From: Octopus sinensis
Taxonomy: Eukaryota
DNA length: 64,000 nt
Assembly: GCF_006345805.1 (NCBI RefSeq)
Contig: NC_043004.1
Location: 9,424,001-9,488,000 of the forward strand
Reading direction: 5' to 3'
In this document: piece after piece, positions 20,621 to 30,763 of the stretch
Layout of the letters: each line of letters opens with the position of its first letter
Position numbering within the stretch: position 1 is the first letter of the stretch
Notes under the pieces: model-generated
The model's input: the letters and a program-made list of their open reading frames with translations, nothing else
The model's database searches: none
What the model was told of the DNA's origin: nothing
Position numbers and translations under genes: made by a program

Positions 20621-21595
20621 TTTAGTTTCACATCGAGCTGTGACCATGCGGGCACCGCCATTTTGCTACTCTGTTGTTGAGAGCCTCCTCCTCTGATATG
20701 TAGCATTTGGTGAATAAGGGAGTTTGATGTGATGTCGCTACCCTCAATTGCATCTCCTACCGCAGGGTAGGTTAATCTGGGACTCTTGAGAGGAAGAGAT
20801 CCAATTTTAACTTGAAAGCACCTACGTCCACCTTATGGCGGGCCCACAGGCTCTTAGGGAAAAAATATTAAAAAGCTGCAGGCCCCTGAAACCCACGTTG
20901 TTGCAGTAACTGGTCGTGAAGCGCGATGGCATTGCTGGGATCCGTTCTGGCATTTGTGTAGATATCAATGTCAAAATTTGGCACAATCACTTCTAGGAAC
21001 CACCAGATATATATAACTGCATATCTCTCCTGCCTTCGTTCCAGGGAGTAAAGTCTTAGCTGTTTCAGCATATCCCAGTAGCTGAGCTGTTGCACTGAGA
21101 CGATTTTCTTTGTGAAGCTTCGCTGGATTGCTTCAAGATCCGCTGTTAATTTTATACTGTGGGGTGACCATAGCTAGGAGTAGTAGTCCAGGCGGTTGAG
21201 GTTGAATATCCTCCAGAGGACCATCAAGGTTTCCTTCTCTCTGGTTCTGAACGTTCTCAGGATCCATCCATCCAGCCGTCGGCACTTTGTCGCCATCTTG
21301 GTAATGTGCACTTGGAAAGGGGTATCATCATTCATGTCGATAGCCAAGTCCCGCACTGATTTAAGCTCTGGGATTCTAATTCCCTGTGGGCCAGTGTACC
21401 CCGTAAGTTTTACTTTCAGTGTTGGGCGCTCGTAGCGCAGGGATTGGGATTTTCCAGCATTAAATTGCATATCATTATCCTCAGCCCATCTATAAATTGA
21501 GTCCAACTCCTGCTGCAGGTGTGCAACAACCCAGGGATTCTGTATTTTCTGCGAGACTTTCGTATCGTCTGCGTAGCTTGCAAGGGTGGCTAGCC
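20621..21595 (-). mobile_element. 5'-truncated CR1-group LINE, decayed RT
   Basis: ORF 21174-21665 LASYADDTKV...MQFNAGK...VRDLAI; 20868-21095 LYSLERRQERY; 3' tail near 20625-20660. Confidence 0.9.
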
Positions 21596-21749
21596 AGACT
21601 TGTTTCATATCAGGCATTTTATTGCTTCTCCCGTTCTCTTCTTTCTCTGCCTGCCTGTCTTTCACTGCTTGTTTGTGACTGCTTTTTCCCTCTGTCTGTC
21701 AGTCTGTCACTCAAACAACATGTGTGCAAGCATTCAGTTACATTTCTAA

Positions 21750-22280: not shown

Positions 22281-22717
22281 CTCTGAATGTGTACATATTT
22301 ATGCGTGCGCACTCGCACACTTCGTCTCCAGAACCAAAACGTACAATCGCCAAAACAAGCCATTTAACCGTGCCAAATACTCGCCGTCCGAACAACCATA
22401 TCGAATCGTTTCATTTCGCCTTTCGAGGCAGTGAATTCATGCTACATGTTACTGGGTTTTACACGCATGCGAGTGACGACTAAAGCTACATGTGTGTGCG
22501 TTGATATTGGCGTAATTCACACCTATAACACGCCCTCTTATATCTATTCACATGGATACATTCATAGATATATACATCCCTATGAACACTCACAGCATGA
22601 GGTAGTTTTATTATCATTATAACCGACGAATAAGAGATAGACTTCAAAATTGAAACATGTATAATGATGGATGCTTTTAATCCAACACAAGAATAAACTA
22701 CATATATATATATATAT

Positions 22718-22790
<73 letters not shown>

Positions 22791-22952
22791 CGTATTTTTT
22801 GCCATTTCAATATGGCTAACCCCTAAGGTGGATGCTACTGTAGTTTTTAGCCCCAGGAGGACACACTCCTCCAGCTGGCCATAGACACACCTTTCTGTGT
22901 CCTGTCAGTATTTGCAAAGGGAAGTCATCCTTCCCGTCTTCAACTTATGATA

Positions 22953-22997
22953 CACACGGACTCGAGTTTCGAGGTATTGACCTCTCGTCAGCGTGTG
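22953..22997 (-). ncRNA. Canonical type I hammerhead ribozyme (inverted copy)
   Basis: Exact reverse complement of 23225-23269. Confidence 0.9.
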
Positions 22998-23224
22998 ACA
23001 ATCATAGTTGTCGCGAGAATTAGATTTCCTTCACAAATACTTATACTTAGGGTTAGCCATATTGAAATGGCAAAAATACGTCACGATGTGTGACCGCTAC
23101 TGTATATAACTCACTTTGATATTTATCATTGTTTGATTTCACTTTTTCAACTAGCGACATGGGCGCTGGAAAAAGTATAAGTATTTGTGAAGGAAATCTA
23201 ATTCTCGGCGACAACTATGATTGT

Positions 23225-23269
23225 CACACGCTGACGAGAGGTCAATACCTCGAAACTCGAGTCCGTGTG
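23225..23269 (+). ncRNA. Canonical type I hammerhead ribozyme
   Basis: cacacg-CTGACGA-gaggt-caat-acctc-GAAA-c-tcga-g-TC-cgtgtg: 6-bp stem I, 5-bp stem II, palindromic stem III ACTCGAGT, predicted cleavage after C23263. Confidence 0.92.
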
Positions 23270-23650
23270 TATCATAAGTTGAAGACGGGAAGGATGACTT
23301 CCCTTTGCAAATACTGACAGGACACAGAAAGTGTGTCTATGGCCAGCTGGAGGAGTGTGTCCTCTGGGGCTTAAAACTACAGTAGCACCACCCTTAGGGG
23401 TTAGCCATATTGAAATGGCAAAAATACGTCACGATGTGTTACGCTACTGTATATAACTCACTTTGATATTTATCATTTATATATATAGATAATATTACAT
23501 ATATATATATAATATATTATATATATATCACAATCAAGGAACGGCCATAATAGGCCATTCACCCACTAGAAATAACAGCCAAAAAGCTTCAACCGCAAAA
23601 TAACATTAATTCCGTAAATCAGGAGAAAATTAAAAAACATTTACCCTGAA

Positions 23651-23756
23651 ATTCTTAGACGATGCACCGTTTCTTCTACTGTTTAATGGTAAATTAACCT
23701 GATTAAATTAAATCAAGCCAATCTACCATAGGCCCTTAGATTCATCAGTAAGGAAT
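23651..23756 (-). ncRNA. Type I hammerhead with extended stem II (array copy, minus)
   Basis: Reverse complement of the 24863-24970 motif; tcatcag at 23742-23748. Confidence 0.75.
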
Positions 23757-24132
23757 AGCCAAATCGGAACAGATATTTTTCACGAGGCATTCTCGTCCAT
23801 GCCTCGCCAATATCTGACCTAAAATTTTCAAATCGTCGCACTCGCGCCAATTTATCGGCAGCAAATAATATAAGCCGCCGATTCCATTACGGAACCAACC
23901 AGAAAATTCATAATTAATCAATATAGGGAGGCAAAAAATTTGTAGAATTCTTTTGCCCCCAGCGCCTAGTGGGAAAAATTAAATAGTCATAAACCATTTT
24001 TAAGTTCAATATCACAATCAAGGAACGGCCATAATAGGCCATTCACCCACTAGAAATAACAGCCAAAAGCTTCAACCGCAAAATAACATTAATTCCGTAA
24101 ATCAGGAGAAAATTAAAAAACATTACCCTGAA

Positions 24133-24237
24133 ATTCCTTAGACGATGCACCGTTTCTTCTACTGTTAATGGTAAATTAACCTGATTAAATTAAATCAAGC
24201 CAATCTACCATAGCCCTTAGATTCATCAGTAAGGAAT
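24133..24237 (-). ncRNA. Type I hammerhead with extended stem II (array copy, minus)
   Basis: Reverse complement of the 24863-24970 motif; tcatcag at 24223-24229. Confidence 0.78.
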
Positions 24238-24862
24238 AGCCAAATCGGAACAGATATTTTCACGAGGCATTCTCGTCCAGCCTCGCCAATATCTGACCTA
24301 AAATTTTCAAATCGTCGCACTCGCGCAAATTTATCGGCAGCAAATAAATATAAGCCGCCGATTCCATTACGGAACCAACCAGAAAATTCATAATTAATCA
24401 ATATGGAGGCAAAAAATTTGTAGAATTCTTTTGCCCCCAGCGGCCTAGTGGGAAAAAATAAATAGTCATAAACCATTTTTTCAGGGTAAATGTTTTTAAT
24501 TTTCTCCTGATTTACGGAATTAATGTTATTTTTGCGGTTGAAGCTTTTTGGCTGTTATTTCTAGTGGGTTGAATGGCCTATTATGGCCGTTCCTTGATTG
24601 TGATATTGAACTTAAAAATGGTTTATGACTATTTAATTTTTTCCCACTAGGCCGCTGGGGGCAAAAAATTCTACAAAATTTTTTGCCTCCCTATATTGAT
24701 TAATTATGAATTTTCTGGTTGGTTTCCGTATGGAATCGGCGGCTTATATTTATTTGCTGCCGATAAATTTGGCGCGAGTGCGACGATTTGAAAATTTTAG
24801 GTCAGATATTGGCGAGGCATGGACGAGAATGCCTCGTGAAAAATATCTGTTCCGATTTGGCT

Positions 24863-24970
24863 ATTCCTTACTGATGAATCTAAGGGCCTATGGTAGATTG
24901 TGGCTTGATTTAATTTAATCAGGTTAATTTACCATAAACAGTAGAAGAAACGGTGCATCGTCTAAGGAAT
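24863..24970 (+). ncRNA. Type I hammerhead with extended stem II (array copy)
   Basis: attcctta-CTGATGA(24871)-[~70-nt stem II domain]-GAAA(24947)-cg-gtgcat-cg-TC-taaggaat; 8-bp stem I, TGCA palindromic loop III. Confidence 0.8.
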
Positions 24971-25348
24971 TTCAGGGTAAATGTTTTTAATTTTCTCCTG
25001 ATTTACGGAATTAAGTTATTTTGCGGTTGAAGTTTTTGGCTGTTATTTCTAGTGGGTGAATGGCCTATTATGGCCGTTCCTTGATTGTGATATTGAACTT
25101 AAAAATGGTTTATGACTATTTAATTTTTTCCCACTAGGCCGCTGGGGGCAAAAGAATTCTAAAAAATTTTTTGCCTCCCTATATTGATTAATTATGAATT
25201 TTTGGTTGGTTCCGTAATGGATCGGCGGCTTATATTTATTTGCTGCCGATAAATTTGGCGCGAGTGCGACGATTTGAAAATTTTAGGTCAGATATTGGCG
25301 AGGCATGGACGAGAATGCCTCGTGAAAAATATCTGTTCCGATTTGGCT

Positions 25349-25454
25349 ATTCCTTACTGATGAATCTAAGGGCCTATGGTAGATTGGCTTGATTTAATTT
25401 AATCAGGTTAATTTACCATAAACAGTAGAGGAAACGGTGCATCGTCTAACGAAT
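25349..25454 (+). ncRNA. Type I hammerhead with extended stem II (array copy)
   Basis: CTGATGA at 25357, GAAA at 25431, GTC ending 25446; one mismatch in stem I. Confidence 0.75.
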
Positions 25455-25836
25455 TTCAGGGTAAATGTTTTTTAATTCTCCTCGATTTACGGAATTAATG
25501 TTATTTGCGGTTGTTTGAAGCTTTTTGGCTGTTATTTCTAGGGGGTGAATGGCCTATTATGGCCGTTCCTTGATTGTGATCTTGAACTTAAAAATGGTTT
25601 ATGACTATTTAATTTTTTCCCACTAGGCCGCTGGGGGCAAAAGAATTCTACAAAATTTTTTGCCTCCCTATATTGATTAATTATGAATTTTCTGGTTGGT
25701 TCCGTAATGGAATCGGCGGCTTATATTATTTGCTGCCGATAAATTTGGCGCGAGTGCGACGATTTGAAAATTTTAGGTCAGATATGGCGAGGCATGGACG
25801 AGAATGCCTCGTGAAAATATCTGTTCCGATTTGGCT

Positions 25837-25941
25837 ATTCCTTACTGATGAATCTAAGGGCCTATGGTAGATTGGCTTGATTTAATTTAATCAGGTTAAA
25901 TTTCCATTAAACAGTAGAAGAAACGGTGAATCGTCTAAGGA
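25837..25941 (+). ncRNA. Type I hammerhead with extended stem II (array copy)
   Basis: CTGATGA at 25845, GAAA at 25920, GTC ending 25935; loop III variant TGAA. Confidence 0.72.
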
Positions 25942-26165
25942 TTTCAGGGTAAATGTTTTTAATTTCTCTCTGATTTACGGAATTAATGTTTATTTTGCGG
26001 TTGAAGCTTTTTGGCTGTTATTTCTAGTGGGTGAATGGCCTATTATGGCCGTTCCTTGATTGTGATTTGAACTAAAAATGGTTTATGACTATTTAATTTT
26101 TTCCCACTAGGCCGCTGGGGGCAAAAGAATTCTACAAAATTTTTTGCCTCCCTATATTGATTAAT

Positions 26166-29132: not shown

Positions 29133-30763
29133 CAAACTCAACTGCTGATCCTGATGGGTTCCCAGCAATCCTCCACAAAGCGTGTAAGCATGCCCTGGCA
29201 AAACTCCTCAAGATCTCTTCAAGAGCTTTCTTACAAATGGCAAACTGTCAAGCAAGCTGAAGGAGGGAATAATATGCCCAATACATAAAGGGGGAAGTAG
29301 AGCAGATGCCAAAAACTATAGGCCCATCTCTCTCATTTCAAATATCAGAAAATTCATGGAACGGATATTCAGGGGGACACTAATCGCATTCCTTGAGGAA
29401 AATAACTTGCTGAGTGATACCCAGCATGGTTTTCGACCAGTTAGGAGCTGCCTGACCCAGCTCTTACAACATTATGACTGGGTGTTGAGGCAGTTAATCA
29501 ACAAATCAAATGTGGACGTAATCTACATTGATTTTGCAAAAGCTTTTGAAAAGGTGGATCATGGTATGATATGCCACAAACTGCGTGACCTCGGCATAGC
29601 TGGAAAACTTGGAGTGTGGTTACATGACTTCCTGAAAGATAGGAGTTAGGCAGTAGTGGTTAATGGAACATCTCTATGAACACACAAATAATGAGCGGTG
29701 TTCCACAGAGTGATGTCTTGGGACCACTGCTTTTTATAGTGGCCCTCTCATATATGCCCTCAAATGCCCGGATAGCCACTCTGGCAAGCTATGCAGACGA
29801 TACGAAAGTCTCGCAGAAAATACAGTACGCCAGTGATGTTGCACACTTGCAGCAGGAGTTGGACTCAATCTACAGATGGGCTGAGGATAATAATATGCAG
29901 TTTAATGCTGAAAAATTCCAGGCCCTGCGATACCAGCATCCAAAACTGAATATTAAACCTACGGGGTACACCGGTCCACAGGGAATTTCAATCCCAGAGC
30001 CTAAGTCTGTGAGGGACCTGGGTATCGACATGAGTGATGATACCGCTTTCCAAGTGAACATTACCAGGATGACGACAAGTACAGACGACTGGCTGGCTGG
30101 ATCCTAAAAACATTCAGAACCAGAGATAAGGAAACCATGATGGTCCTCTGGTGGACATTCGTCCTCAGCCGCCTGGATTACTGCTCACAGCTATGGTCAC
30201 CCACCAGTGTGAAATTAACAGCGGACCTTGAAGCAATCCAGAGAAGATTCACAAAGAAGATCGTCTCTTTGCAACAGGGAAAGGTTGAAACAGCTAAGAC
30301 TCTACTCCCTGGAGAGAAGACGGGAGAGGTATGCAGTAATATATGTCAGGAATATCCTGGGAGGAATTGTGCCAAATTTTGGCATTGTAAGCTACACCAA
30401 TGCTAGATCGGAACGACACTGCACAGTGCCAAAGATCCCAGCAATGCCATCACGCTTCAGGACCAGCTACTGTAACAGCCTGTGTTTCAAGGGCCCACAG
30501 CATTTTAATATTCTCCCAAAGAGTATGAGGAACTTGCACAAAGTAGACGTAGGGTTTTTTAAATCAAAGCTGGAACTCTTCCTGTCGAGAGTCCCAGATG
30601 AACCTACCTCACGGCAAGAGGTGTAAATGAGAGTAGCTCCATCAAACTCCATTCTTCACCAAGTGCCACATATCAGAGGAGGCTCTTCGTAATAACAGTG
30701 TAGCACAAAACGGCGTTGCATCAGCATGACCACAGCTCTGAGCTCATACTAAAAGAAAAAAAA
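29133..30763 (+). mobile_element. CR1-group LINE (subfamily A), RT pseudogene and 3' tail
   Basis: QHGFRP, IDFAKAFEKVDH, YADDTKV, LDYCSQLWSP, LYSLERRRERY over several frames; tail cagcatgaccacagctctgagct plus A-rich end. Confidence 0.92.

What the first reader, a model, noticed from the sequence alone, without database searches (positions are those of the whole stretch)
22787..23477. Second, unrelated ~348-bp ribozyme monomer with a textbook hammerhead, directly adjacent to the array
Seen: the layout is an inverted copy followed by 1.2 direct units (an 85-bp segment repeated 347-348 bp apart), with a perfect hammerhead cacacg-CUGACGA-gaggu-caau-accuc-GAAA-cucgag-UC-cgugug on each strand. The palindromic stem III (ACUCGAGU) is the known signature of hammerheads that cleave as dimers. 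It has the same divergent architecture as the 487-bp array but no evident sequence similarity. Inference: independent families use the same integration machinery and the same TA target, 50 bp apart.
Basis: partly seen in the sequence, partly recalled or inferred. Interest (0 to 1): 0.75.

Follow-up and report, generated by a model that had tools for sequence, protein, structure and literature searches.

The report
Penelope-mobilised hammerhead retrozyme insertion
This is one back-to-back insertion of a young, protein-free 353-base repeat that carries a predicted self-cutting RNA (hammerhead), occurs hundreds of times in this genome in TA microsatellites, and is likely pasted in by the borrowed enzyme of a Penelope-type retrotransposon; it is a new example of a known class of element.

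Summary
The layout and hammerhead are real (predicted cut after C23263; C22959 on the minus strand). The family unit is 353 bp; the window copy has single-base losses (348). It is one of 686 exact hammerhead copies in the genome, about 98.6% alike, non-coding, mostly in (TA)n; 88% and about 75% subfamilies exist. Insertions end at two fixed sites about 45 nt apart, the Penelope 'tail'. 37 of 42 head-to-head insertions have one short and one tailed end, none has two alike, 5 are unclassifiable; the two arms share private variants. The stem III palindrome changes CG to GC in an older subfamily, which favours dimer cleavage, though similar invertebrate hammerheads cut as monomers. No autonomous element bearing this unit as pLTR was found in a partial search. 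The 487-bp neighbour is unrelated, follows the same end rule with a longer tail, and is a separate insertion. Expression, cleavage and circles are untested. Verdict: new family of metazoan non-LTR retrozymes; this scan has reported the same pattern on other DNA of this genome.

The parts
22702..22786 (.). (TA)n target run, left flank
22787..23048 (-). Left arm: 5'-truncated copy (unit positions about 124-353, then 1 to about 33-35); its 3' end is the 'short' end, facing the TA run
22953..22997 (-). Type I hammerhead of the left arm; predicted cut after C22959
23046..23048 (.). Inversion junction, 3-nt microhomology (CTT) shared by both arms
   Evidence: sequence printed; 16 of 28 junctions in other loci overlap by 1-9 nt
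23046..23477 (+). Right arm: last 7 nt of a unit, one full monomer (23053-23400; 348 bp here, 353 in the family), then unit positions 1-78 ending at the 'long' (tailed) end
23225..23269 (+). Canonical type I hammerhead: 6-bp stem I, CUGACGA, 4-5-bp stem II, GAAA, 2-bp stem III; predicted cut after C23263
23255..23262 (+). Stem III palindrome; can pair between two hammerheads
23436..23477 (+). Penelope-type tail between the two fixed 3' ends (unit positions about 35 and 78-81)
23478..23526 (.). TA-rich spacer between this insertion and the 487-bp array
23527..26165 (.). Neighbouring, unrelated 487-bp head-to-head array (separate insertion; ends at its unit positions 53 and 160)

Best explanation
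This is a single head-to-head insertion of a young, non-coding 353-bp repeat family with a type I hammerhead and Penelope-type ends, likely a non-LTR retrozyme copied in trans by an endonuclease-bearing Penelope-like element. Inferred cycle: a tandem locus is transcribed; two neighbouring hammerheads pair through their stem III palindromes and cut out unit-length RNA, which is then probably ligated to a circle; a Penelope protein, probably a dimer, nicks both strands of TA-rich DNA and starts reverse transcription from each nick at one of two fixed sites on the RNA (unit positions about 35 and 78-81); both cDNAs run 5'-wards through the hammerhead site, stop at variable points and join by microhomology, leaving mirror arms, one short and one tailed. 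Shown: family, copy number, ends, TA target, arm kinship, structural conservation, presence of RT plus GIY-YIG elements with tails in the same genome. Inferred: transcription, cleavage, dimer use, circle, two-nick priming, the partner's identity.
For: Dispersed young family: 225 matches in 40 scored of 1299 candidates; 686 exact hammerheads; 98.6% mean identity; longest stop-free frame 66 aa. Two fixed 3' ends at TA runs. Head-to-head insertions: 37 short+long, 0 short+short, 0 long+long, 5 unclassifiable of 42; subfamily 2: 13 short+long, 1 long+long, 2 other of 16; subfamily 3: 8 short+long, 5 other of 13 (subfamilies 2 and 3 were fetched with queries ending at the long end). The tail equals the stretch between two RT start sites in vitro, with both strands cut and extended and a predicted protein dimer (PMC11167929). 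Arms of one insertion differ by 0.8% against 2.2% from other loci (18 insertions, p = 5e-5). Flanking duplications of roughly 9-13 bp in 6 of 7 hand-picked subfamily 3 loci outside long TA runs. 0 of 56 5' truncation points lie within 3 nt of the cut site: templates were uncut or religated. 13 of 71 predicted pairs show double changes across subfamilies; hammerhead cells 96.9% paired, covariation score above 500 of 500 shuffles. Penelope-like ORFs of 775-781 aa with RT and GIY-YIG and their own tails are present.
Against: No expression, cleavage or circle was shown. No partner was identified: none of 52 GIY-YIG loci (some overlapping; the search scored 150 of 5029 candidates) ends in this unit. 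Covariation rests on three related lineages, and the count of pairs changed on both sides is not above shuffles (175 of 500). Only 5 of 35 sampled subfamily 3 copies keep a canonical core; most carry a U4-to-C change (sample drawn with such a copy), and hammerhead mutants did not affect insertion in vitro (PMC11167929), so cleavage may not be needed for mobility. Arrays do not prove a circle: L180 has a four-unit periodicity and L179 a duplicated block whose borders are not the cut site. One of 18 insertions (L174) has arms no closer than average, and gene conversion could also make arms alike. In vitro the two start sites showed no strand difference (PMC11167929). 8 of 9 Xenopus retrozyme dimers did not cleave in vitro (bioRxiv 10.64898/2026.07.22.740005).
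Confidence: 0.8

Rival explanations
1. The unit is the pLTR of an autonomous Penelope-like element not yet seen; the copies are heavily 5'-truncated insertions of that element.
For: Penelope insertions are mostly 5'-truncated and carry hammerheads, tails and inverted pLTRs (PMC8557442, PMC3846280 passages). Xenopus retrozymes resemble pLTRs. Two loci (L135, L169) join the unit directly to Penelope ORF pieces. The GIY-YIG search was far from exhaustive.
Against: Units follow each other head to tail at 353 bp with no ORF, up to 10 in a row; 22 of 58 loci hold two or more units. The same closed 352-353-bp unit persists in three subfamilies. The two joined ORF pieces belong to different families (69% alike) and break mid-ORF. 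The autonomous families seen have unrelated ends and minimal hammerhead variants.
Confidence: 0.08
2. A Penelope-mobilised repeat copied from linear, uncut multimeric transcripts; the hammerhead is incidental or slow, no circle is involved, and long arrays grow afterwards by unequal crossing-over.
For: Altered cores in most sampled subfamily 3 copies; higher-order and duplicated blocks in L180 and L179; hammerhead activity dispensable for insertion in vitro; the lone monomer is predicted to misfold (-16.5 against -8.5 kcal/mol).
Against: Core intact in 147 of 166 subfamily 1 and 35 of 38 subfamily 2 copies, stems and palindrome kept by paired changes; units within an array are closer (0.9%) than between arrays (2.0%) and 4 of 10 arrays carry a fixed variant seen in no other sampled locus; related animal retrozymes accumulate as circles (PMC7229834).
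Confidence: 0.1
3. An ordinary satellite or DNA-level foldback repeat in which the hammerhead is a relic.
For: Tandem arrangement; contigs closing at 353 nt in two runs are explained by tandem DNA.
Against: Dispersal over many chromosomes, fixed 3' ends with variable 5' ends, TA targeting, flanking duplications and the short+long rule are marks of retrotransposition.
Confidence: 0.02

Closest known systems
Metazoan non-LTR retrozymes (coral, mussel, axolotl; PMC7229834: search listing, passages and section 14 read; bioRxiv 10.64898/2026.07.22.740005: parts 1-3 of 5 read, supplements closed)
   Same: Non-coding tandem unit of 170-400 nt (mussel 350-390 bp), GC 43%, canonical type I hammerhead with short palindromic helix III, strong folding, co-existence with Penelope-like elements.
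   Different: New sequence family. The text read describes tandem repeats and does not describe mirror-image insertions with two fixed ends. Circular RNA and cleavage are shown there, untested here.
Endonuclease-bearing Penelope-like elements (PMC11167929: parts 1-2 of 4 read; PMC8557442, PMC3846280, PMC4209133: passages read)
   Same: Partial tandems, inverted 5'-truncated copy, 30-40-bp tail often at one end only, AT-rich or (TA)n target, hammerhead near the end, flanking duplications of about 8-10 bp.
   Different: No ORF; canonical rather than minimal hammerhead; tail about 45 nt. The papers call the tail optional; here head-to-head insertions carry exactly one in 58 of 59 classifiable cases.
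Non-autonomous Chlamys elements such as MRC1 (PMC8557442 passage)
   Same: Non-autonomous, pLTR-forming, multicopy head-to-tail insertions mobilised by a Penelope-like element.
   Different: Those generally resemble an autonomous family at the 3' end and their clade lacks canonical hammerheads; here no matching autonomous end was found.
Dimeric hammerheads of newt/axolotl satellite and Penelope elements (PMC4209133, PMC7229834 passages)
   Same: Palindromic loop 3 allowing a double hammerhead in tandem transcripts.
   Different: Helix III here has two pairs plus a tetraloop, the type described for invertebrates, some of which cut well as monomers.

Membership tests
Non-LTR retrozyme | Type I hammerhead in each unit | tested here: met
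   (147 of 166 sampled subfamily 1 copies keep core, GAAA and UH)
Non-LTR retrozyme | Short (170-400 nt) low-GC tandem unit without coding capacity | tested here: met
   353 bp, GC 42.8%, longest stop-free frame 66 aa, up to 10 units
Non-LTR retrozyme | Dispersed, non-autonomous mobility | tested here: met
   686 copies on many chromosomes; 0 of 58 loci in a pLTR-ORF arrangement
Non-LTR retrozyme | Highly self-paired monomer | tested here: met
   linear z -7.0; circular fold -117 kcal/mol, z -7.1 against 60 shuffles
Non-LTR retrozyme | Expressed as unit-length linear and circular RNA | tested here: inconclusive
   only contigs of runs not on record as RNA; control repeat far deeper in the same runs
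Non-LTR retrozyme | Self-cleavage in vitro | not testable with these tools
   needs a transcription and cleavage assay
Penelope-like element (autonomous) | ORF with RT and GIY-YIG endonuclease | tested here: not met
Penelope-like element (insertion signature) | Tail: two fixed 3' ends a few tens of bases apart | tested here: met
   positions about 35 and 78-81 in three subfamilies
Penelope-like element (insertion signature) | Partial tandems with an inverted 5'-truncated copy, AT-rich or TA target | tested here: met
Solo pLTR of an autonomous element | Same sequence flanks a full RT-EN ORF elsewhere in the genome | tested here: inconclusive
   not seen in 52 GIY-YIG loci or 58 family loci; search partial
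Obligate dimer hammerhead | Palindromic helix III under selection for pairing between two ribozymes; weak monomer | tested here: inconclusive
   CG-to-GC loop change keeps the palindrome in 29 of 35 subfamily 3 copies; double hammerhead -16.8 against monomer -8.5 kcal/mol per ribozyme, without tertiary contacts; one evolutionary event, no kinetics

The most novel reading that the evidence does not exclude
Each mirror-image insertion records one Penelope protein dimer on one ribozyme-made RNA circle: its two RT sites start at two different fixed positions, one per nicked DNA strand, and roll round the circle. That would turn the 'optional tail' into an obligatory asymmetry, explain Penelope inverted ends without antisense self-priming, and show that animal retrozymes are mobilised by Penelope enzymes with no shared terminal sequence.
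Probability: 0.35. Interest if true: 0.65.

Novelty: new member of a known kind. Interest (0 to 1): 0.36.

Why it matters
The class is known, and its link to Penelope elements has been proposed from co-occurrence and sequence similarity. This family adds insertion-level evidence: hundreds of young copies with a strict one-short, one-tailed end rule, arms from one template lineage, and a palindrome-preserving change that points to dimer cleavage. It is a compact substrate for two open questions: which enzyme moves animal retrozymes, and how Penelope elements build inverted ends. Interest is limited because RNA and partner are unshown and the scan has already reported the same pattern for several other families in this genome.

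Tried and rejected
Rfam: 0 matches at gathering threshold in the window; the motif was verified by hand instead. L087 looked like a pLTR beside a 775-aa Penelope ORF, but a microsatellite separates them and that element's own 3' end is unrelated: rejected. A GIY-YIG match 4.7 kb from a copy (L123) is a separate fragment. L135 and L169 join the unit to ORF pieces of two different families: template switch or target deletion, undecided; no partner named. Sequencing runs: no RNA holder listed. Two runs gave a 383-nt contig that closes on itself (353+30), but a Helitron-like control repeat was roughly 10-100 times deeper in the same runs, so this is no evidence of circles or expression. The energies used a structure shifted by one base and are discarded; one search has the corrected values. 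The 8,970 matches of a conserved 21-mer are not a copy number: 17 of the first 30 lie in a Helitron-like element. A paper search for twin priming in Penelope elements returned mostly unrelated papers; it showed no paper on this family or a strict end rule, but the library lacks most subscription journals and the bioRxiv supplements were closed. No earlier scan finding matched by sequence.

Full report
Observation. The region is one mirror-image insertion between two TA runs. The left arm (22787-23048, minus strand) and the right arm (23046-23477, plus strand) match over 264 nt, and the right arm holds 1.2 units. The arms meet at a 3-nt microhomology. Rfam did not flag it. It has no similarity to the 487-bp neighbour (best E 0.86).

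Family. The window lies in a 2.72-Gb animal genome (G000); earlier scan notes call it an octopus, which I did not test. A search gave 225 matches in 40 scored of 1299 candidates, and an exact 33-nt hammerhead pattern occurs 686 times, against 0 for the control. The monomer is 353 bp and copies are 98.6% alike; the window copy lacks several single bases, and contigs of four runs under four organism labels read the family letters there. The unit has no coding capacity and 42.8% GC, and folds far better than shuffles. Two older subfamilies exist: 352 bp at 88% and 353 bp at about 75%. In 58 loci (57 chosen by the pattern on two chromosomes, 1 long array) the median is 1.7 units, 22 have two or more, the longest 10.

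Ends. Copies have variable 5' ends and two fixed 3' ends, at unit positions about 35 and 78-81, nearly always against (TA)n. This is the Penelope tail, which in vitro is the stretch between two reverse-transcription start sites (PMC11167929). Of 42 head-to-head insertions of subfamily 1, 37 have one short and one long end, none has two alike and 5 are unclassifiable; single-orientation insertions end short in 31, long in 5, other in 2 of 38. Subfamilies 2 and 3 give 13 of 16 and 8 of 13, with one long+long case; their samples are biased to long ends. The window copy obeys the rule. The arms of one insertion are closer to each other (0.8%) than to other loci (2.2%) in 18 insertions, with one exception. 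Six of 7 hand-picked subfamily 3 loci outside long TA runs show flanking duplications of roughly 9-13 bp, so the mirror structure is one event. Published work notes that the tail is often at one end only (PMC8557442, PMC3846280 passages); I found no statement of a strict rule in five searches of an incomplete library.

Ribozyme. It is a canonical metazoan type I hammerhead: helix I 6 bp, helix II 4-5 bp, helix III 2 bp with a palindromic tetraloop (definition in PMC4209133 passage). The core is intact in 147 of 166 subfamily 1 and 35 of 38 subfamily 2 copies. Across subfamilies 13 of 71 predicted pairs show double changes; the hammerhead is 96.9% paired and its covariation score beats all shuffles, but only three lineages contribute and the count of doubly changed pairs is not significant. 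In subfamily 3 the two central loop letters change from CG to GC in 29 of 35 copies, keeping the palindrome; such symmetry matters only if two ribozymes pair. Nearest-neighbour energies agree: active monomer -8.5, misfolded monomer -16.5, double hammerhead -16.8 kcal/mol per ribozyme, tertiary contacts ignored. Against an obligate dimer: a coral retrozyme cuts fast as a monomer. Against a need for cleavage: only 5 of 35 sampled subfamily 3 copies keep a canonical core, and hammerhead mutants still insert in vitro.

Partner. The genome holds several Penelope-like families with 775-781-aa RT plus GIY-YIG frames, TA targets, their own tails and minimal hammerhead variants; a Cys motif before the endonuclease suggests the Neptune clade (my reading of the PMC8557442 passage; no tree built). 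None of 52 such loci ends in this unit; the one hit (L087) is a separate insertion. Ten of 58 family loci have Penelope ORF pieces nearby, two joined directly, from different families. The partner is unnamed, and the search covered 150 of 5029 candidates.

Circle or not. None of 56 5' truncation points lies at the cut site, so templates were uncut or religated. Units within arrays are closer than between arrays (0.9% against 2.0%, 10 arrays), but L180 shows a four-unit period and L179 a duplicated block, so some arrays grew in other ways. Sequencing runs gave no usable evidence on RNA.

Neighbour. The 487-bp family (328 matches) follows the same rule, with ends at 53-61 and 160-166 in the 6 head-to-head loci where both ends could be read by eye; its tail is about 100 nt. 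It also abuts the 353 family at L126 and L137/L138, as do autonomous copies, which fits TA runs being reused as targets. No functional link is implied.

Verdict. A new family of metazoan non-LTR retrozymes (PMC7229834; bioRxiv 10.64898/2026.07.22.740005) with a Penelope insertion signature. Membership features testable from sequence are met; RNA and cleavage are not tested. Eight earlier scan notes on other pieces of this genome reach the same reading (seen after my counts); they are not independent support. Interest 0.36.

Noticed in passing
L244, L248, L250-L252, L255-L260, L262, L265, L267-L270 (e.g. L257 about 1200-1590): A very abundant element of about 390 bp with Helitron-like ends (5' TC, 3' hairpin and CTAG; hallmarks recalled) has captured about 60 bp of subfamily 3 of this retrozyme, the conserved two-hairpin stretch before the short end; 17 of the first 30 of 8,970 pattern matches.
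   Followed up: partly
L083 about 2031-2113, L082, L086, L087 about 5555, L169 about 1575: Autonomous Penelope-like families here have an upstream frame overlapping the RT-EN frame, with a conserved T6-A/T heptamer at the overlap in families only about 50-70% alike: a possible programmed -1 frameshift; no stable downstream hairpin predicted. One paper search listing did not settle whether this is described.
   Followed up: partly
3' UTRs of L083, L082, L075, L135/L152 and L136 families: Minimal hammerhead-like motifs with U3 and A8 in place of C3 and G8 and a palindromic helix III lie about 60-130 nt before the element ends; the same double change occurs in 4 of 35 subfamily 3 copies.
   Followed up: partly
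window 24864-24970 and repeats (487-bp family, + strand): Read by eye: a type I hammerhead whose stem II carries an insertion of about 70 nt between CUGAUGA and GAAA; not folded here.
   Followed up: no
L135 2390-4170; L169 565-4990: Retrozyme 5' ends joined without TA to internal ORF pieces of two different Penelope families; L135 has an inverted Penelope 3' end as its other arm. Template switch or target deletion.
   Followed up: partly
L180 3778-7467 (G000:C11432): Ten-unit array with a four-unit periodicity in which about half of the units carry a G8-to-A core change.
   Followed up: partly
window 20267 (-), 26886 (+), 55205 (+), 56585 (+), 58759 (+), 41854 (-): Further short CUGANGA...GAAA motifs, probably old Penelope-type minimal hammerheads.
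   Followed up: no
window 20640-21620 (-), 29188-30107 (+): Decayed fragments of a LINE-like reverse transcriptase frame (family not determined).
   Followed up: no
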